In this document: one piece after another, positions 2,544 through 8,088 of the stretch
How the letters are laid out: the number at the start of each line of letters is the position of its first letter
Numbering within the stretch: the first letter of the stretch is position 1
IMG/VR virus record: IMGVR_UViG_3300031566_000252
Coordinates: 1-30,260 of that record
From: a virus
Length of the DNA: 30,260 bases
Reading direction: 5' to 3' (one strand)
Notes under the pieces: model-generated
What the model was told of the DNA's origin: nothing
The model's input: only the letters and a program-made list of their open reading frames with translations
The model's database searches: none
Program-made: the position numbers and the translations under genes

Positions 2544-2883
2544 TAGTTAAATTGATATTAATTTGTATAGGCTCATCATCAGTAGTCATATCCATTTGCT
2601 GCTTCTCCCAATATCCTCTTTTCCTACCTTTAGTCTTTAGGTAAAAGATAGTAGCAGAGGTGTTATCATTCTTAATCTGTTTGAATAATTGGCTTTCAGC
2701 AAAGTCTAATGCTACTCCCTCTATTTCTTTGACCTGTTTAGCAAAGTCCTCATCTTCTTTTAACCAATTATAGAATGTACTTCTAGCCACTCCAACTGAT
2801 TTACAGGCAAATGTTACCACACCTAAAGATTGTTCAAGTGCTTCTAATACTTTCTCCTTTTTTATGTGTCCATTTTTGTCCAT
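2533..2883 (-). CDS. terS: Terminase small subunit (HTH type)
   Basis: 116 aa. HTH segment GVARSTFYNWLKED and the motif ATIFYLKTKGRKRGYW typical of phage small terminases. Lies directly upstream of and overlapping terL. Confidence 0.75.
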   Translation of the reverse strand: MDKNGHIKKEKVLEALEQSLGVVTFACKSVGVARSTFYNWLKEDEDFAKQVKEIEGVALDFAESQLFKQIKNDNTSATIFYLKTKGRKRGYWEKQQMDMTTDDEPIQININLTNED

Positions 2884-3542
2884 TAGTCTAGGCTTTCATA
2901 AGGTATATTCAATGCTTCTATGACTGCAAATTCAAATACTTTGCTATCATTGTCATATCCATTTAATTGTTTCATTCTTGTCTTTAGTTCTAACCATCTT
3001 TGAAATGTGTCTGATGATACCTTTAATGATATTGAATTGTCAAACTTATCTTCCTTTTCTAAATCTAAAGGTGCATCTTCTTCTACATCAAATTGCTCCC
3101 AATCAAAGTTTAAGACATCTATCATATTAGATATTTCCTTTTCATCAAACGGCATTGTTTCAGCCATCTTTTCAATAGAATAGACTTCTTTTAATTCTTC
3201 AAAGGTTTCTCCTAACTTAAAAGCATTAGACTTAAATCTAGTTTCATTAGTTTCAATAGCAACGATTTGAGCATCTGCTTTAGACATCTCTCCATAGTTA
3301 TATGCGTGAGCCTTATCCATACCTATTTCTCTCATTACATCTAATCTGTGGTTACCATTTACCACTTCATACTTATCTCCTAGTTCTCTTATTTGAATGT
3401 TCTCTACTTGTCCATTCTTTTTGAAATTAGCTATAAGTTTTTCAGTTTGTTTTTCATCTTCTTCCTTATAGTTCCAATCTGCTTTTACTAAGTCTTTGAT
3501 TTCTATATCTACCCAACCCAGTTTATGTTTCTTTTTTGCCAT
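2883..3542 (-). CDS. ParB-like N-terminal (ParB/Srx nuclease-like) domain protein
   Basis: 219 aa. ParB-fold signature YEVVNGNHRLDVM. Its start overlaps the 3' end of the DpdA gene by 34 nt. Confidence 0.7.
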   Translation of the reverse strand: MAKKKHKLGWVDIEIKDLVKADWNYKEEDEKQTEKLIANFKKNGQVENIQIRELGDKYEVVNGNHRLDVMREIGMDKAHAYNYGEMSKADAQIVAIETNETRFKSNAFKLGETFEELKEVYSIEKMAETMPFDEKEISNMIDVLNFDWEQFDVEEDAPLDLEKEDKFDNSISLKVSSDTFQRWLELKTRMKQLNGYDNDSKVFEFAVIEALNIPYESLD

Positions 3543-4387
3543 AGTTCTGTATAAAATTGTTCGTATTCTTTATATGCTTTGATACCTAATCTCATATTGT
3601 ATAATCTTCTTTTGGCTAAATCATCTCCAAATAGAATTTCAGTATCTAATTTACCTAACTTATTTATTACTTTTTGTTTATCCTTAAACCTAACTGCTTT
3701 GATACTTCCTTTTTCGTGGAATGGTATTGTTCCATACATTTCACTTTGTAACCAACTTGTACTATCAACAGAATAGAAAGGATAGTTTCTTAATACTTCT
3801 GTTTTAGTCATAGCAAATCCGTGTACCTTTATTCCTCTATCATAAGCAGGTTTGATTAATTTGTTATAGTTTAATCTTTTCCTGTGTCCTCTATCTCCCT
3901 CCAATGCTATGTAGCCACTCTCACAAGTATCAAGCATTTCCATATAATCATTCCAATCCATTGTGGTTGGGTGGTAAACAGGTACGCATTTAGAATAAAG
4001 GTTTTCTTTTCTTAATACATCTCTCCATTCCAATACTACTTCTTGTGTTACTATCTCTCCAATATCTAATTCAGCATAGTAATCAAACTTGTCAAAGTTT
4101 TCTTTTAGCCATATAACATAAGCATCAAAGTATTCTTGTGGTGTTTCCTTTGTCTTACTTTTCTTTGAATGAAAGGTTGCACTCATTACTCCCTCCTCTG
4201 ATTTTTCATTAAAGAAAGAATGTGCACCACTATCAATGAATAGTATCTTATGTGCTTCTTTAGTACCCTCCATTACTTGTGGTCTTTTGTTACCTCTTAA
4301 GTAATAGTAAGAATAGAAAGCATATTCTATTTCATTTTTAACCTTTTGTGGCTCTCCACCCTCAACACCTGCTAGAAATATTTTCAT
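3509..4387 (-). CDS. dpdA: DpdA-family DNA guanine transglycosylase (TGT-like 7-deazaguanine inserting enzyme)
   Basis: 292 aa. Signatures FIDSGAHSF, YIALEG, KVHGFAMT and YSVDSTSW match the DpdA/TGT-like pattern. Sits in an operon with queD/queE/folE. Confidence 0.8.
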   Translation of the reverse strand: MKIFLAGVEGGEPQKVKNEIEYAFYSYYYLRGNKRPQVMEGTKEAHKILFIDSGAHSFFNEKSEEGVMSATFHSKKSKTKETPQEYFDAYVIWLKENFDKFDYYAELDIGEIVTQEVVLEWRDVLRKENLYSKCVPVYHPTTMDWNDYMEMLDTCESGYIALEGDRGHRKRLNYNKLIKPAYDRGIKVHGFAMTKTEVLRNYPFYSVDSTSWLQSEMYGTIPFHEKGSIKAVRFKDKQKVINKLGKLDTEILFGDDLAKRRLYNMRLGIKAYKEYEQFYTELWQKRNINWVG

Positions 4388-5328
4388 AATAATTTAAGTA
4401 TGTTATCAAAGTTCTTAACCTTATATGGTTTAGGCTTCTTGTAATTGTGTATAGCATTGTGTACTTTATCAATCAATTCTTCCATATTATCAAATAGGTT
4501 ATCAGGTAATGTTTCCCTATAAGATAATCTATTAGGTGCAAATGGTATGCAACCTAAATTTAAACTTTCTAACATAGCTATACCAAATGTTTCTTGTAAT
4601 GCAAAACTAACTGATACTTTTGCTCTTGATAATAACTTATAGTATTCATCCTTAGTAGTCCAAACATCTTTTGTTTTTATCCATTCTATTTTATCATTAG
4701 GATATTTTTCTTTGTAGTCTTCTATCAGTTTATCAAATAAGAAAGGTTGTTTTTCATTTGCCAACCTGTGTGGAAATACTACTATATCTTCTTTTGGTTG
4801 TGGCTTATGATTATCAGTAAATACAGGAAACTTTTCTACCACTATCTTATCCCAAGTAGCACCAAAGTATTCTTCTATAATTTTTTTATGAAAGTCAGTA
4901 GCTACTATAACTTTATCTACACATTCTATCATAGCAAATTCCACACCTGTTGCCCACCTTGTCAATTCCTTTTGTGCTAGGAAATCATACTTATCCCAAC
5001 AACCTGCGTGTAACATTCCAACCATTTTAAACTTTAAGTCCATACAATCTCTTATGTATGCTATGTTAGTTACTATGGGATTCCATAAGTCTAAAAAGAA
5101 TATAGTATCATCATCAGTTATCTTACCCTCTTTGATAAGTTTAATGATTTCTAATCCCTGTTCTAGTTTAAATTGGTTAGTACCTATCACATCAAGGAAC
5201 TCTCCCTCTTTGATTTCTTGTACTTCTTGATTACCTACAATTACATCCACCTTATCTTTTAAGGCATCTAACCATTGTTTAGTATATCTTTCTTCTATTG
5301 ATTCTATGTGTGCTAAAATTATTGCCAT
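4384..5328 (-). CDS. GT-B fold glycosyltransferase (GT4/GT1-like) embedded in the deazaguanine island
   Basis: 314 aa. C-terminal E-x7-E motif QETFGIAMLESLNLGCIPFAPNRLSYRE, and the second Rossmann domain begins VVFPHRLANEKQPFLF. ATGA overlap with dpdA. Confidence 0.75.
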   Translation of the reverse strand: MAIILAHIESIEERYTKQWLDALKDKVDVIVGNQEVQEIKEGEFLDVIGTNQFKLEQGLEIIKLIKEGKITDDDTIFFLDLWNPIVTNIAYIRDCMDLKFKMVGMLHAGCWDKYDFLAQKELTRWATGVEFAMIECVDKVIVATDFHKKIIEEYFGATWDKIVVEKFPVFTDNHKPQPKEDIVVFPHRLANEKQPFLFDKLIEDYKEKYPNDKIEWIKTKDVWTTKDEYYKLLSRAKVSVSFALQETFGIAMLESLNLGCIPFAPNRLSYRETLPDNLFDNMEELIDKVHNAIHNYKKPKPYKVKNFDNILKLL

Positions 5329-5642
5329 ACCTCTGCTCCATTTTCATTGTCCTCTAATACAGAACAATAGTTTAATTGAAATACTGTTAGTAATTCTTTT
5401 GCTATCATTTCACAAGACATATCTCCAAATGTTTTAGGGTACATATCTTCTAGGAATTGATTGATAGTTCTTTTCAATAGTATGATTTCTATATCTCTAT
5501 CATCGTGGGTAACTTCTTTCTTGCAACATATATGAAAAATATGTCTGTGTGGAAATGCTAGAAACTCAACTCCCTCTAACTTACAATCAGTCCATTGGTG
5601 TACTGCTTCGTGTTGTAGGTTTACTATTATATTTGTTTTCAT
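5319..5642 (-). CDS. Small T-fold (QueD/PTPS-like) protein; second paralogue of unknown role
   Basis: 107 aa. The pattern LQHEAVHQW..C...(x)..FPHRHIFHI resembles the QueD/PTPS Zn-binding H...H / HxH arrangement. Overlaps both neighbours. Confidence 0.45.
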   Translation of the reverse strand: MKTNIIVNLQHEAVHQWTDCKLEGVEFLAFPHRHIFHICCKKEVTHDDRDIEIILLKRTINQFLEDMYPKTFGDMSCEMIAKELLTVFQLNYCSVLEDNENGAEVWQ

Positions 5643-6469
5643 TTAATTAATTCTAGAAATTCACTTTTCACTTTATGGTCTGTTTTAAAATTACCTATCA
5701 GCTTTGATGTGGTAGTCCAAGTGTCGTGTTTCTTAACACCTCTCATCTCCATACACATATGTTTAGCCTTTAAGACTACTGCTATACCTAAAGGGTCTAG
5801 TTCCTCTTGCAGAAACTCTGCTACTTGTGTTGTTATTCTTTCTTGGTTTTGTAATCTTCTGCTAAAGGTTTCCAAAGTTCTAGCTAATTTACTTAATCCA
5901 ACTATTCTTTTGTTAGGTATGTAAGCTATGTGTCCGTGTCCAAAGAATGGTGCTACGTGATGTTCACACAAAGAATGAAAAGGTATATTAGTTTGTACAA
6001 TCATTTCATCATATCCCTCACTTTCAAAAGTGGTACAATTCCATTTAGGAGGATTAAGAAACTCCTTAAAGAATTTAACATATCTTTTTGGTGTATCTTG
6101 TAAACCCTCTCTGTTTGTATCTTCTCCAAATGCTTGTAACAATCTTGCCACACTATCTTCTGCATCTCGTTCTCCTGATTCTTCCCAAGGAAACTCTAAC
6201 CAACCTAAATCAGTTTCATCTATCTTATTCCATAAAGCAACAAAAGGAATATCAGGATATTTATCTTTCCACTTCATTGCCGTTCTACCACTATCAATTA
6301 AATCATCAACTATGTAATCAGCTTGTTCAGGTGTATCTACTGCATTTCCTGTTAGTCCTGCAATGATTTGTCCACCTCTAGGTACTCCATAGTATTTTCC
6401 TTTAGGTAATTTTTTTACTCTTTCATAAATTTGTTCCCAAGTAATTACACTCCTGTTGTTTTGTTCCAT
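5639..6469 (-). CDS. folE: Fusion protein: N-terminal minimal Gpt-like phosphoribosyltransferase domain plus GTP cyclohydrolase I (FolE)
   Basis: 276 aa. Residues 1-97 align by eye with E. coli Gpt (ITWEQIYERVKKL / VPRGG / YIVDDLIDSGRT PRPP loop / WLEFPWEE). Residues ~100-276 carry GCH-I signatures LQDTPKRY, CEHHVAPF, GLSKLAR, QNQERIT and KHMCMEMRGV. Confidence 0.85.
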   Translation of the reverse strand: MEQNNRSVITWEQIYERVKKLPKGKYYGVPRGGQIIAGLTGNAVDTPEQADYIVDDLIDSGRTAMKWKDKYPDIPFVALWNKIDETDLGWLEFPWEESGERDAEDSVARLLQAFGEDTNREGLQDTPKRYVKFFKEFLNPPKWNCTTFESEGYDEMIVQTNIPFHSLCEHHVAPFFGHGHIAYIPNKRIVGLSKLARTLETFSRRLQNQERITTQVAEFLQEELDPLGIAVVLKAKHMCMEMRGVKKHDTWTTTSKLIGNFKTDHKVKSEFLELIK

Positions 6470-7170
6470 AATTCAATTTGTAACCTTGTACAGAATTTAA
6501 TACTCTCACGAATACATAAGTCTGCTACAAAGTTTTGATTAGTTTTTAATTCAGTTAAGTCCTCTGCATTAGGCATCAGATATATTTTGTTTCTGTCTAC
6601 ATTAAATTCTTGTATCTCATTCCAATTATCTTCATTGCTTATAACAAATTTAAAAATAGATACAGGACTATTGTTAAAAAATTCAATCACTTCTGGTATG
6701 TGTCTTTTGTTTTTAGGCATTCCACTATTACCAAGTTTAGGACTAACATTATATAAATCAATCCAATAATCTAATTCCTCTAATGGCTCAATCGTTCCAT
6801 TTGTTTCTACTTCTACAAAAGGATGATAACCTTTATTGGATAAGTAATTCATTACCTCAATGATTGCTTTCTGTTGCATTAAAGGTTCTCCACCTGTCCA
6901 AATTAGATGTGTACCTTTTTTCATTTGCTCTCCGTACAAATCAATAAGCATTTTGCCTACTTCTTCTACTTCATAAGTTATACCTTTTGTCCAAACTTCT
7001 AATGTGTCGCACCTCCAAGTTGCTCCATCATATAGTTGTCCATCTTTCTGTGTGCCATAACCTCCACACAATAAATTACAAGCCTTTAATCTAACAAAGA
7101 TAGCAGGTACACCCATTGTTTCTCCCTCGCCCTGTAAACTATAAAAATGTTCTGATACTTTAATTTTCAT
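6445..7170 (-). CDS. queE: 7-carboxy-7-deazaguanine synthase (QueE, radical SAM)
   Basis: FYSLQGEG N-terminal motif, cysteine cluster ACNLLC...WRCDT, and GGEPL. I prefer the ATG at 7170 over the track's GTG at 7179. Confidence 0.8.
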   Translation of the reverse strand: MKIKVSEHFYSLQGEGETMGVPAIFVRLKACNLLCGGYGTQKDGQLYDGATWRCDTLEVWTKGITYEVEEVGKMLIDLYGEQMKKGTHLIWTGGEPLMQQKAIIEVMNYLSNKGYHPFVEVETNGTIEPLEELDYWIDLYNVSPKLGNSGMPKNKRHIPEVIEFFNNSPVSIFKFVISNEDNWNEIQEFNVDRNKIYLMPNAEDLTELKTNQNFVADLCIRESIKFCTRLQIELWNKTTGV

Positions 7171-7618
7171 ATGATGCACTATTTTTGTTGTTTTCTCTTA
7201 CTGTTACTTTACTTACCTTTACTCTATTTGACGTTTCTTTACATACAAATTCATTTACCTTATTGTAAATAAACTCTGCAAACTTTTCAGCACCTACATC
7301 ATCAATCTTTCTTAACTGAATAATTTTAGATTCTTCTAATATATTATACATATACATTTTAGGGTCATCATTGGCTACTATCATAGTATGGTCAAACATA
7401 TAATCAAACCATTCTTTAGGACTTTTGCCATCAATAGTTCCTTTGGCTCTTTTCATTCCTCCGAAATCCCATACCCAATTCCTATCGTCTAACTCTCCCT
7501 CAAATTCTATAAGAAAAGAAAGTGCGTATCCGTGCAAGTAATAACAATGTGTATCTATTGCGTGGTGTTGTCTGAACACACAAGAATAACCATCAAATAA
7601 CTTACTACTCTTAAACAT
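7160..7618 (-). CDS. queD: QueD-family 6-carboxytetrahydropterin synthase-like T-fold protein (LHGY variant)
   Basis: 152 aa. FRQHH...HCYYLHGYALSF...WVWDFGGMK...FDHTMIV parallels E. coli QueD AAHRL...KCGRLHGHSF...IIDFAELK...LDHHYLN. The third His is replaced by Tyr. Confidence 0.7.
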   Translation of the reverse strand: MFKSSKLFDGYSCVFRQHHAIDTHCYYLHGYALSFLIEFEGELDDRNWVWDFGGMKRAKGTIDGKSPKEWFDYMFDHTMIVANDDPKMYMYNILEESKIIQLRKIDDVGAEKFAEFIYNKVNEFVCKETSNRVKVSKVTVRENNKNSASYEN

Positions 7619-7874
7619 TTTCCTGCTTCTTTATAAGTTCTAATTCAAATTCCAAATGGTCTATTGCTTTCTGTATGTCTTGTGCCTTTGGATTGTTAGC
7701 TTTCTTACCTGCTCTTAACAAGTAGGTAACTGCCGTTCCCACATTATAAGTTAAAAGAAAGTCATCTATAACCTCGTTGGCTTTGATGCCCTTAAAGATA
7801 CCTTTGTAATAGTTAGGAGTATCTTTTTCTTCTAATCCATTTCTAGTATAATCGTAGTAGTATTTACTTTGCAT
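7611..7874 (-). CDS. DUF3310-like phage protein
   Basis: 87 aa. The motif VGTAVTYLLRAGKK...KAIDHL resembles the DUF3310 family (GNAxKYxxRxGxK). Confidence 0.5.
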   Translation of the reverse strand: MQSKYYYDYTRNGLEEKDTPNYYKGIFKGIKANEVIDDFLLTYNVGTAVTYLLRAGKKANNPKAQDIQKAIDHLEFELELIKKQENV

Positions 7875-8088
7875 CTTTTTTCTTCTTTTTAGGTTTATCC
7901 ATTTCCTTTTTAAAGTATTGAAACATAGTACCTAAACAACTAGAGCAATTTGTACCATACTTGTAATTCGTTCTATGAATTTCATTATACAATTTTATCA
8001 TTCTAGTTTTGAAATGATGCGATTGAGCAACACCTGTTTTGATACCCTCCCAAATTTCTTTAAATTCTGTTTTTTGTTCTTTATTCAT
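7864..8088 (-). CDS. Hypothetical protein (74 aa from ATG 8088), Lys-rich C-terminus
   Basis: The internal ATG (MNKEQKTEF...) sits 2 nt after the stop of the upstream gene. The track start at 8154 would overlap that gene by 65 nt. Confidence 0.6.
   Translation of the reverse strand: MNKEQKTEFKEIWEGIKTGVAQSHHFKTRMIKLYNEIHRTNYKYGTNCSSCLGTMFQYFKKEMDKPKKKKKDAK

What the first reader, a model, noticed from the sequence alone, without database searches (positions are those of the whole stretch)
4384..5328. Glycosyltransferase between DpdA and the deazapurine synthesis genes: possible sugar-decorated 7-deazaguanine
Seen: a 314-aa GT-B protein with the E-x7-E motif QETFGIAMLE, translationally coupled (ATGA) to dpdA and overlapping the T-fold gene. 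It is therefore co-expressed with the modification enzymes. I saw no hydroxymethylase or other usual substrate-generating enzyme for DNA glycosylation in the genome. Recollection, not alignment: the motifs VVFPHRLANEKQPFLF and TKDEYYKLL...QETFGIAMLES..GCIPFAPNRLSYRE look closer to the DUF3524-containing GT4 branch than to generic GT4 enzymes. That branch includes eukaryotic GTDC1/QTMAN, the tRNA-queuosine mannosyltransferase (WPHRWEHDKDPE... / ...HEFFGVAMLEA..GC.P..P..L.YPE). Queuosine is itself a 7-deazaguanine, so a QTMAN-like enzyme next to DpdA would suggest glycosylation of a deazaguanine in DNA, or of host tRNA Q.
Basis: partly seen in the sequence, partly recalled or inferred. Interest (0 to 1): 0.85.

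Follow-up and report, generated by a model that had tools for sequence, protein, structure and literature searches.

The report
QTMAN-like sugar transferase in deazaguanine operon
A phage gene for a sugar-transferring enzyme, related to the animal enzyme that puts mannose on the tRNA base queuosine, always sits inside the gene set that swaps guanine in phage DNA for 7-deazaguanine, so these phages probably carry a sugar-decorated deazaguanine that nobody has described.

Summary
ORF 4384-5328 (-) encodes a 314-aa GT-B/GT4 glycosyltransferase with an intact E-x7-E motif. It shares ATGA with dpdA and overlaps the upstream T-fold gene by 10 nt. That T-fold gene is DpdL, the proposed 7-carboxy-7-deazaguanine decarboxylase.

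The QTMAN recollection also survives testing. The family profile scores 78-86 bits against real tRNA-queuosine mannosyltransferases, versus 15.6 bits for the best of all PDB chains. hhalign gives E=2.8e-27 over residues 98-287. The first ~97 residues are not alignable, and PF12038 is not detected, so this is a sister family, not a member.

The new result is linkage. The family has at least 680 50%-identity clusters and at least 598 IMG/VR hits. It sits beside DpdL and DpdA in 77 of 80 viral loci, with the three exceptions at contig ends. All 25 full-length bacterial-genome hits sit beside DpdA, and most also have DpdL. The same holds in cultured phages ACP17, PA5oct, X1, BUDD, BCSR5, Phosso and BUCT-ZZ01. 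DpdL phages without the GT, such as phiST, which has plain dDG, mostly pair DpdA3 with a nearby kinase.

Most likely the enzyme glycosylates DpdL-made 7-deazaguanine. The product is unproven and I found no report of it.

The parts
4384..5328 (-). QTMAN-related GT-B (GT4-like) glycosyltransferase, 314 aa. This is the finding.
   Evidence: ORF. Pfam PF00534. AF2 pLDDT 95.5. GT4 fold matches. QTMAN relationship. Catalytic-type residues R188, K226, E246 and E254 are invariant.
5319..5642 (-). DpdL, a QueD-like T-fold protein proposed to decarboxylate 7-carboxy-7-deazaguanine. 107 aa. Its stop overlaps the GT start by 10 nt.
   Evidence: It carries LAFPHRHIF, matching the DpdL signature LxxxHRHxF defined in PMC10516641. 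phrog_17812 scores 2.7e-23. tblastn hits phiST CGPG_00067 and ACP17 DpdL. Aligned.
3509..4387 (-). DpdA-type DNA guanine transglycosylase, short form, 292 aa. Its start shares ATGA with the GT stop.
   Evidence: phrog_887 queuine tRNA-ribosyltransferase scores 1.3e-31. tblastn hits annotated phage DpdA/TGT genes. Overlap shown.
5639..6469 (-). Fusion protein, 276 aa: an N-terminal phosphoribosyltransferase-like domain (about residues 1-100) joined to GTP cyclohydrolase I (FolE).
   Evidence: Pfam GTP_cyclohydroI scores 1.1e-65 over residues 104-275. Weak PRT hits: phrog_8995 at 1.4e-4 and NCBIfam xanthine PRT at 2.5e-5. The same fusion is seen in L010 and L106.
6445..7179 (-). QueE, the radical-SAM 7-carboxy-7-deazaguanine synthase, 244 aa.
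   Evidence: phrog_2076 QueE-like scores 3.8e-50. Pfam Radical_SAM is weak.
7160..7618 (-). QueD, 6-carboxy-tetrahydropterin synthase, 152 aa.
   Evidence: Pfam PTPS scores 1.5e-13. phrog_2389 scores 1.3e-35.
2883..3542 (-). ParB_N-like protein, 219 aa, overlapping the end of dpdA. Possibly a DpdB-like partner of DpdA. Its membership in the system is inferred.
   Evidence: Pfam ParB_N is weak at E=0.0072. Homologues beside DpdA or the GT in L010, L011, L098 and L101 carry PF02195 or match this protein.

Best explanation
The gene encodes an active nucleotide-sugar-dependent glycosyltransferase. It is a dedicated tailoring enzyme of the DpdL-type 7-deazaguanine DNA-modification pathway.

Proposed pathway:
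1. FolE, QueD and QueE make 7-carboxy-7-deazaguanine from GTP.
2. DpdL removes the carboxyl to give 7-deazaguanine (DG).
3. The GT transfers a sugar from a host NDP-sugar onto DG.
4. DpdA exchanges genomic guanine for the modified base.

The result would be virion DNA carrying a glycosyl-7-deazaguanine instead of plain dDG.

I favour glycosylation of the free base before insertion, because the acceptor domain is acidic and has few conserved basic residues. Glycosylation of dDG already in DNA, possibly with the GT docked on DpdA, is the close alternative.

What is shown: fold, intact donor-site residues, homology to QTMAN, operon structure and near-obligate linkage to DpdL and DpdA.

What is inferred: the acceptor, the sugar, the atom glycosylated (N2 by analogy with huimycin HuiG, or C7/C8), and the order of steps.
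For: Active GT-B enzyme:
- PF00534 scores above its cut-off.
- AF2 pLDDT is 95.5, with GT4 fold matches.
- R188, K193, K226, E246 and E254 are at least 99% conserved in 138 sequences. They align with QTMAN's PHR, K and HEFFGxxxxE residues.

Operon: seven genes have overlapping stops and starts.

Linkage:
- 10 of 10 first loci have DpdL, DpdA, FolE and QueE.
- 77 of 80 IMG/VR loci have DpdL and 77 of 80 have DpdA. The three without DpdL have the GT at a contig end.
- In 77 dereplicated clusters, DpdL is within 5 kb in 69 and DpdA in 67.
- All 25 full-length hits in GTDB genomes sit beside DpdA.
- Gene order varies (DpdL-GT-DpdA, DpdA-GT-DpdL, GT-DpdL-DpdA), so linkage is selected rather than inherited synteny.

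Conserved acceptor domain: 22 N-domain positions are at least 93% conserved across very different phages. Many of them differ in the paralogous GT of PhiXhv-12, which has no deazaguanine genes nearby.

The nearest other family, QTMAN, glycosylates a 7-deazaguanine nucleoside (names).

Precedent: the GT4-type enzyme HuiG glycosylates a free 7-deazapurine base with UDP-GlcNAc.

PA5oct, which carries the GT, has restriction-resistant DNA attributed to a modified G of undetermined chemistry.

ACP17 dpdA plus dpdL expressed without the intervening GT gave no dDG.
Against: - DG has no hydroxyl or side-chain amine at C7. An N-, C- or O6-glycoside would therefore be needed, and I know of no retaining GT4-type enzyme that makes a C-glycoside (from my own knowledge, not tested).
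- phiST makes dDG at 100% replacement without this GT, so the GT is not needed to make or insert DG.
- DpdL sequences do not differ between GT-linked and GT-less systems.
- The protein is acidic (pI 5.34, family median 6.1), whereas T4 DNA beta-glucosyltransferase has pI 9.05. This argues against direct DNA binding.
- No sugar-nucleotide synthesis genes are in the window.
- No mass-spectrometry evidence for a glycosylated deazaguanine exists in the searched literature.
- The phiST dpdL plus dpdA3 co-expression also failed, so the ACP17 failure is not diagnostic.
Confidence: 0.55

Rival explanations
1. The GT works in the deazaguanine pathway, but no sugar ends up in DNA. It might make a transient glycosylated or activated intermediate. 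It might glycosylate a pterin intermediate from FolE/QueD/DpdL, as cyanobacterial pteridine glycosyltransferases do. Or it might detoxify or sequester free DG or CDG.
For: - Linkage to DpdL, FolE and QueD is as strong as linkage to DpdA.
- DpdL is a QueD/PTPS-type T-fold protein that could bind pterins.
- The acidic acceptor domain fits a small-molecule acceptor.
- The top fold matches, MshA and BshA, are small-molecule GT4 enzymes.
Against: - The GT is most often immediately adjacent to, or translationally coupled with, DpdA or DpdL.
- It is absent from preQ0/preQ1-type phage clusters, which share FolE and QueD. Its only hits in cultured phages are the DpdL phages and the PhiXhv-12/Ep032 paralogue group.
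- A pterin glycoside has no evident use to a phage.
- A known pteridine GT was not among the top 50 PDB fold matches.
Confidence: 0.2
2. The GT is a functional analogue of QTMAN. It glycosylates queuosine in host or phage tRNA to retune translation during infection.
For: The only other family with clear sequence similarity is tRNA-queuosine alpha-mannosyltransferase. Bacterial hosts carry Q-tRNA (established knowledge).
Against: - The QTMAN_N domain is not detectable.
- The N-domain pI is 4.7, versus 8.8 in QTMAN, which is unfavourable for RNA binding.
- The GT is tied to DpdL clusters that stop at DG and encode none of the later steps to queuosine: no QueC-like protein was found among the scanned ORFs of the window, and none among the commonest neighbour families of the GT.
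- Nothing explains why a tRNA enzyme would be linked to DpdL and DpdA in about 100% of loci.
Confidence: 0.08
3. The GT is an ordinary envelope, LPS or teichoic-acid glycosyltransferase carried as a moron, for lysogenic conversion or superinfection exclusion. It lies in the operon by chance.
For: JGI's automatic name for several homologues is 'glycosyltransferase involved in cell wall biosynthesis'. The fold matches include TarM, WbnH and PglA.
Against: - These are generic GT4 fold matches at 10-19% identity.
- The best PDB sequence score is only 15.6 bits.
- There is near-obligate linkage to DpdL and DpdA across unrelated phages of Proteobacteria, Cyanobacteria and low-GC hosts.
- The conserved N-domain implies a single acceptor despite very different host envelopes.
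Confidence: 0.03

Closest known systems
tRNA-queuosine alpha-mannosyltransferase (QTMAN/GTDC1; Pfam QTMAN_N PF12038 + Glycos_transf_1), including bacterial PF12038 proteins
   Same: - Homologous over the second half of the N-domain and the whole donor-binding C-domain: hhalign E=2.8e-27 over residues 98-287.
- Shared motifs: PHR(L/W)xxxK(Q/D)P, K(D/E)(E/D)Y, and (Q/H)E(T/F)FG(I/V)AMLE...GC.P..P..L.Y.E.
- Both are associated with a 7-deazaguanine base.
   Different: - About the first 97 residues are not alignable, and PF12038 is not detected.
- The phage protein is compact (314 aa) and its acceptor domain is acidic.
- Its context is DNA modification (DpdA, DpdL), not tRNA.
- DG has no cyclopentenediol hydroxyl, so the acceptor atom must differ.
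DpdL/DpdA3 7-deazaguanine (dDG) system of Cellulophaga phage phiST (Cui, Hutinet et al. 2023, PMC10516641)
   Same: It has FolE, QueD, QueE, DpdL and a DpdA-family transglycosylase, and no QueC. DpdL sequences are equivalent.
   Different: - phiST-type systems use DpdA3, with a P-loop kinase in phiST, MA9V-3 and D479 and a MazG-like pyrophosphatase in phiST. They lack the GT.
- The window type uses a short or long non-A3 DpdA plus the GT, often with a PRT domain and a ParB-like protein.
- The paper does not mention any glycosyltransferase.
Phage DNA glycosyltransferases acting on hydroxylated pyrimidines (T4 alpha/beta-GT on 5hmC; HY126/RB69 arabinosyltransferases on 5-hydroxycytosine)
   Same: Both are GT-B fold enzymes encoded next to base-modification genes. 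The HY126 GT (9iqz) appears among the fold matches at rank 16, TM 0.60.
   Different: - Those systems encode the enzyme that creates the acceptor hydroxyl. None is present here.
- The base here is a purine analogue.
- T4 BGT is basic (pI 9.05), whereas this GT has pI 5.34.
- There is no specific sequence similarity.
HuiG, the huimycin glycosyltransferase (7-deazapurine natural-product tailoring)
   Same: It is a GT4-type enzyme (PF13439 family) that glycosylates a free 7-deazapurine base with UDP-GlcNAc. In huimycin the sugar is on the 2-amino group (my own knowledge). It is a chemical precedent for glycosylating the base before insertion.
   Different: It belongs to an actinomycete secondary-metabolite cluster without DpdA. 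Its substrate is O-methylated preQ0.

Membership tests
GT-B / GT4-like glycosyltransferases (Pfam Glycos_transf_1) | Match to PF00534 above the gathering threshold | tested here: met
   30.9 bits against a cut-off of 26.4. All 47 aligned members match.
GT-B / GT4-like glycosyltransferases (Pfam Glycos_transf_1) | Two Rossmann-like domains; E-x7-E motif and phosphate-binding Arg/Lys in the C-domain | tested here: met
   AF2 pLDDT 95.5. Foldseek matches MshA, BshA, TarM and GlgM at E~1e-9. E246, E254, R188 and K226 are invariant.
GT-B / GT4-like glycosyltransferases (Pfam Glycos_transf_1) | NDP-sugar-dependent transfer activity | not testable with these tools
   Needs an enzyme assay.
QTMAN / GTDC1 family (PF12038 + PF00534) | N-terminal QTMAN_N (DUF3524) domain | tested here: not met
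   0 of 47 members hit PF12038 at E<=10. Positive controls score 186-228 bits. N-domain-only hhalign gives E=0.028, probability 1.7%. With a more diverse profile, only residues 98-176 of the N-domain align.
QTMAN / GTDC1 family (PF12038 + PF00534) | QTMAN-type C-terminal domain motifs (PHRW.HDK.P; HEFFGVAMLE; GC.P..P..L.YPE) | tested here: met
   BLASTP E=1e-13. Profile scores 78-86 bits, versus 15.6 bits for the best PDB chain. hhalign probability 99.2-99.75%.
QTMAN / GTDC1 family (PF12038 + PF00534) | Acceptor is queuosine-34 of tRNA; donor is GDP-mannose | not testable with these tools
   Context and the acidic N-domain argue against a tRNA acceptor. The donor is unknown.
DpdL-type 7-deazaguanine DNA modification system (PMC10516641) | FolE, QueD and QueE present, with no QueC | tested here: met
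   Searches identify the three enzymes. No QueC-like hit appeared in any scanned ORF of the window.
DpdL-type 7-deazaguanine DNA modification system (PMC10516641) | DpdL with the LxxxHRHxF signature in place of QueD's CxxxHGH | tested here: met
   LAFPHRHIF in ORF 5319-5642. Homology to phiST and ACP17 DpdL.
DpdL-type 7-deazaguanine DNA modification system (PMC10516641) | A DpdA-family transglycosylase | tested here: met
   phrog_887 scores 1.3e-31. tblastn hits annotated DpdA genes. It is not the DpdA3 subtype: there is no match to phiST CGPG_00065.
DpdL-type 7-deazaguanine DNA modification system (PMC10516641) | dDG present in virion DNA | not testable with these tools
   Needs LC-MS/MS.
Phage DNA base glycosyltransferase systems (T4 a/b-GT, Afh-type) | A co-encoded enzyme that creates the acceptor hydroxyl (hydroxymethylase or hydroxylase) | tested here: not met
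   None found among the window ORFs.
Phage DNA base glycosyltransferase systems (T4 a/b-GT, Afh-type) | Direct action on double-stranded DNA | tested here: inconclusive
   pI is 5.34, versus 9.05 for T4 BGT. Only two conserved basic residues, R14 and K54, lie in the N-domain. The HY126 GT is only a generic fold match.

The most novel reading that the evidence does not exclude
Phages with this gene, including the cultured phages PA5oct, ACP17, X1 and BCSR5, carry a glycosylated 7-deazaguanine in their DNA. This would be the first sugar-bearing purine-type base in any genome. The sugar may be attached through an unusual N- or C-glycosidic bond, because DG has no hydroxyl. The enzyme shares ancestry with the eukaryotic tRNA queuosine mannosyltransferase, which would imply an ancient glycosyltransferase lineage specialised on 7-deazaguanines in both RNA and DNA.
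Probability: 0.45. Interest if true: 0.9.

Novelty: new variant of a known kind. Interest (0 to 1): 0.8.

Why it matters
7-Deazaguanine DNA modifications are a major phage counter-defence, and eight derivatives are known. None carries a sugar, and all known DNA glycosylations are on pyrimidines.

A large, unnamed GT family is locked to DpdL and DpdA. This predicts a new hypermodified base and explains an unassigned gene in the clusters of PA5oct-like therapeutic phages, whose modified G has not been identified. It also offers a candidate for the 'other unknown enzymes' that Cui et al. allowed might be needed after their ACP17 reconstitution failed.

The family is also the nearest relative I found for QTMAN outside the PF12038 proteins. 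That gives a handle on how QTMAN-type enzymes recognise 7-deazaguanines.

The prediction can be tested directly with existing phages by LC-MS/MS.

Tried and rejected
- Megablast of 3000-8000 against the phage collection found no match, so there is no close cultured relative.
- phmmer of the GT against PDB sequences found no glycosyltransferase at E<=10. The profile search gave only 15.6 bits.
- A QTMAN structure is not in the PDB.
- AF2 of human QTMAN from 10 vertebrate sequences failed (pLDDT 35.9). The planned reciprocal Foldseek of QTMAN against viral models was therefore dropped as meaningless.
- tblastn of QTMAN against phages hit only the PhiXhv-12/Ep032-type paralogue, not the DpdL-linked GTs. 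Single-sequence search is too weak in that direction.
- hhalign on the N-domains alone was not significant.
- I looked for informative domain fusions in long homologues. P0350, at 490 aa, has an unassignable tail.
- I looked for differences between GT-linked and GT-less DpdL that might signal different chemistry and found none.
- The Marinobacter QTMAN-family gene has no queuosine-related neighbours: Suf genes, a U32 peptidase and an AraC regulator.
- NCBIfam gave no useful name for the GT, DpdA or DpdL.
- Literature searches found no report of a glycosyltransferase in DpdA clusters or of a glycosylated deazaguanine in DNA.
Full report
**The observation**

The window is AT-rich (about 31% GC) and all genes are on the minus strand. 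All four quoted motifs are present at residues 183, 225, 245 and 259.

Pfam Glycos_transf_1 matches above its gathering score, and Glyco_transf_4 matches weakly over the N-terminal half. An AlphaFold2 model built on 47 homologues is confident (pLDDT 95.5, pTM 0.91) and shows two Rossmann-like halves. Its best PDB fold matches are retaining GT4 enzymes: MshA, BshA, TarM, GlgM and sucrose-phosphate synthase. TM-scores reach at most 0.69 at 10-19% identity, so this is a generic GT4 resemblance only.

The stop codon shares ATGA with the start of the next gene. The upstream gene's stop lies 10 nt inside the GT start.

**The operon**

| Coordinates (-) | Gene | Evidence |
|---|---|---|
| 7160-7618 | QueD | |
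| 6445-7179 | QueE | |
| 5639-6469 | phosphoribosyltransferase-like domain fused to FolE | |
| 5319-5642 | 107-aa T-fold protein (DpdL) | |
| 4384-5328 | the GT | |
| 3509-4387 | DpdA-type transglycosylase | |
| 2883-3542 | ParB_N-like protein | |

All seven genes overlap end to end, and small and large terminase genes follow.

The T-fold protein carries LAFPHRHIF. This matches LxxxHRHxF, the signature Cui, Hutinet et al. used to define DpdL, the proposed 7-carboxy-7-deazaguanine decarboxylase.

There is no QueC, no thymidylate-synthase-like hydroxymethylase and no DNA polymerase among the window's ORFs. The rest is portal, protease, tape measure, replication initiator, NinG and similar. The cluster is therefore the 'DG type', which in Cellulophaga phage phiST replaces 100% of G by 2'-deoxy-7-deazaguanine.

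**Relationship to QTMAN**

It proved identical to database protein P0121 and 96% identical to macaque 'tRNA-queuosine alpha-mannosyltransferase'. It hits Pfam QTMAN_N at 1e-67.

- The window GT against this sequence gives BLASTP E=1e-13, with 29% identity over 132 residues.
- With the database size set to that of the PDB, phmmer gives E=6e-10 to 4e-8 against ten vertebrate QTMANs.
- The family profile gives 78-86 bits on those QTMANs. The same profile's best hit among all 177,635 PDB sequences, which include many GT4 enzymes, is 15.6 bits.
- Profile-profile comparison gives probability 99.2% and E=6e-20 for the C-domain.
- When five bacterial PF12038 proteins are added to the QTMAN profile, this rises to probability 99.75% and E=2.8e-27 over residues 98-287. 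That span covers the last third of the N-domain as well.

Independently, I scanned 185,579 bacterial and archaeal species genomes with the family's two most conserved peptides. The scan returned only the family itself and five proteins from Planctomycetota and Marinobacter. Two of those five were checked with Pfam and are bona fide PF12038 members at 186-189 bits; the other three matched the QTMAN N-domain by jackhmmer.

Against membership:
- None of 47 members hits PF12038 even at E<=10.
- The N-domains compared alone are not significantly similar (E=0.028).

The family is therefore a sister of QTMAN with its own acceptor-binding region.

**Context elsewhere**

This is the main new result. 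tblastn finds 25-35% identical homologues in cultured phages of unrelated lineages:
- Acidovorax ACP17
- eleven PA5oct-like Pseudomonas jumbo phages
- Sinorhizobium Phosso
- Burkholderia BCSR5
- Xanthomonas X1 and BUDD
- Synechococcus BUCT-ZZ01

In every one of these the gene lies among FolE/QueD/QueE, next to DpdL and a DpdA. Three long metagenomic contigs show the same arrangement.

Larger surveys agree:
- IMG/VR holds at least 598 matching stretches. Of the 80 best loci, 77 have DpdL and 77 have DpdA. The three lacking DpdL have the GT at a contig edge.
- After dereplication to 77 clusters at 80% identity, the commonest neighbours within 5 kb are DpdL (69), FolE/PRT (59), QueE (44), DpdA in short (34) or long (33) form, and QueD (24).
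- All 25 full-length hits in bacterial genome assemblies also sit beside DpdA, and most beside DpdL. They are MAG contigs and Alphaproteobacteria such as Methylobacterium and Magnetospirillum.
- The family comprises at least 680 50%-identity clusters at E<=1e-30.

Gene order around the GT is shuffled between lineages, so the linkage is maintained by selection.

The converse does not hold. DpdL also occurs without the GT in several phages:

| Phage | Features |
|---|---|
| phiST, phi13:1, phi19:2 | DpdA3; phiST also has a P-loop kinase between DpdL and DpdA3 and a MazG-like pyrophosphatase |
| MA9V-3 | DpdA3 and the same P-loop kinase |
| RHph_I1_18 | DpdA3-like DpdA |
| D479 | DpdA3-like DpdA with an adjacent dNMP kinase |
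| Bakedbeans | DpdA not found in the flank |
| Faecalibacterium phage Roos | short DpdA, no GT |

There are thus two DpdL-based architectures, and the GT marks one of them.

**Inference on function**

The donor-side residues R188, K193, K226, E246 and E254 are at least 99% conserved across 138 sequences, so the enzyme is very probably active.

Twenty-two N-domain positions are also at least 93% conserved across phages of very different hosts: E9, R14, Y15, W19, G42, F44, L45, T50, K54, Q57, D80, W82, P84, Y91, H107, A108, G109, D112, D115, W125, E130 and H147. This implies one common acceptor that does not depend on the host envelope. Many of these positions differ in the paralogue of PhiXhv-12-type phages, which sits beside GlmS and an LmbE-like deacetylase with no deazaguanine genes nearby.

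DpdL does not differ between GT-linked and GT-less systems, so the DpdL product, DG, is the most likely acceptor or its precursor.

The protein is acidic: pI 5.34 overall, 4.7 for the N-domain, family median 6.1. T4 DNA beta-glucosyltransferase has pI 9.05 and the QTMAN N-domain 8.8. The conserved N-domain residues are mostly aromatic or acidic. This weakly favours a free-base acceptor over naked DNA or tRNA.

A GT4-type enzyme that glycosylates a free 7-deazapurine base is known: HuiG in huimycin biosynthesis. In huimycin the sugar is on the 2-amino group (my own knowledge).

My best explanation is therefore CDG -> DG (DpdL) -> glycosyl-DG (GT) -> insertion into DNA (DpdA). Glycosylation after insertion is the close alternative.

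**Experimental hints in the literature**

[quoted passage not shown] The authors inferred a modified G at GA and/or GG from the resistance pattern and from the phage's QueE and PTPS genes. Its chemistry was not determined.
[quoted passage not shown] In ACP17 the GT lies exactly between those two genes.
- The phiST pair also failed in that experiment, so this is only suggestive.
- No paper in the searchable library mentions a glycosyltransferase in these clusters or a glycosylated deazaguanine in DNA.

**Weaknesses**

- DG offers no hydroxyl, so an N-, C- or O6-glycoside is required.
- phiST shows that DG can be made and inserted without the GT.
- No sugar-nucleotide genes accompany the GT in this window.
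- Nothing here identifies the sugar.

Rivals:
- A pathway role without sugar in the DNA: a pterin or base glycoside, or a transient intermediate (0.2).
- QTMAN-like action on tRNA-Q (0.08).
- An envelope glycosyltransferase carried as a moron (0.03).

**Verdict**

The QTMAN likeness is confirmed as a sister-family relationship. The pathway association is confirmed and generalised to hundreds of phages. The sugar-decorated deazaguanine remains a well-founded and readily testable prediction.

I rate it a new variant of a known kind (7-deazaguanine DNA modification systems), with interest 0.8.

Noticed in passing
window 5639-6469 (-), residues ~1-100; also L002:10330-10764, L007:2057-2530, L106:4745-5674: A phosphoribosyltransferase-like domain is fused to the N-terminus of FolE here. 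It is a separate gene in PA5oct-like phages and BUCT-ZZ01, and it occurs in about 40 of the GT loci. It could salvage the guanine released by DpdA back towards GTP, or phosphoribosylate CDG/DG as TubE does in tubercidin biosynthesis (my own knowledge).
   Followed up: partly
window 2883-3542 (-); L010:8775-9428, L011:7939-8685, L098:5066-5737, L101:3182-3964: A ParB_N-like protein overlaps the end of dpdA or the GT in the short-DpdA versions of the cluster. This recalls DpdB, the ParB-like partner of DpdA in bacterial Dpd systems.
   Followed up: partly
L015:8634-10004 (19 of 77 GT clusters); L012:10166-11182 (9 clusters); L039:13034-13426 (9 clusters): A 456-aa radical-SAM protein lies immediately upstream of the GT in a quarter of dereplicated clusters. 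Its best NCBIfam hits are the PhpK, HpnJ and AprD4 families. A radical-SAM/SPASM protein and a HIT-domain protein recur in others. These may add further tailoring steps to the base or the sugar.
   Followed up: partly
L006:6896-8005 (Xanthomonas phage PhiXhv-12; also PhiXhv-15/16, Ep026, Ep032): A paralogous GT with a QTMAN-like C-domain is the only phage hit when searching with human QTMAN. It sits beside GlmS and an LmbE-type deacetylase, with no deazaguanine genes nearby. It may belong to a separate glucosamine-type glycosylation system in these jumbo phages.
   Followed up: partly
L008:6239-6718 (phiST CGPG_00066), L009:7342-7812 (MA9V-3), L097:7552-8097 (D479): Several GT-less DpdL/DpdA3 phages carry a kinase next to DpdA3. 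phiST and MA9V-3 have a P-loop (AAA_18/AAA_33) kinase-like protein between DpdL and DpdA3, and D479 has a dNMP kinase after its DpdA3-like gene. phiST also has a MazG-like pyrophosphatase. This suggests nucleotide-level steps in the dDG route that fully replaces G.
   Followed up: partly
L009:6458-7342 and L093:5191-6372: In Chryseobacterium phage MA9V-3 and Vibrio phage Bakedbeans, DpdL is the C-terminal domain of a larger protein (294 and 393 aa). The N-terminal part is unidentified.
   Followed up: no
L123-L127 (Phycisphaerae/Planctomycetota MAGs; Marinobacter salicampi L127:7347-8468): Compact bacterial members of the QTMAN family are present; the two checked with Pfam (L124, L127) score 186-189 bits on PF12038, and the other three matched by jackhmmer only. 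The Marinobacter gene lies between Suf Fe-S assembly genes and a U32 peptidase. Its function in bacteria is unknown.
   Followed up: partly
L005:5317-5850 and L096:1819-2313: Xanthomonas phages X1 and BUDD have a PAPS-reductase-family (PP-loop) protein next to FolE within the GT/DpdL cluster. It is not a recognisable QueC.
   Followed up: no
L013 (IMGVR_UViG_3300031669_002029, 5.6 kb): This IMG/VR contig encodes a GT 100% identical to the window's. It is the same phage or a near-identical one. The nearest DpdL in a cultured phage is from a Chryseobacterium phage at 47% identity, which together with 31% GC hints at a Bacteroidota host.
   Followed up: no
L001:6320-6718 (ACP17) and homologues in 21 of 77 GT clusters: An unannotated 130-175-aa protein family with no Pfam or NCBIfam match recurs near the GT, between FolE and DpdA in ACP17.
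   Followed up: partly
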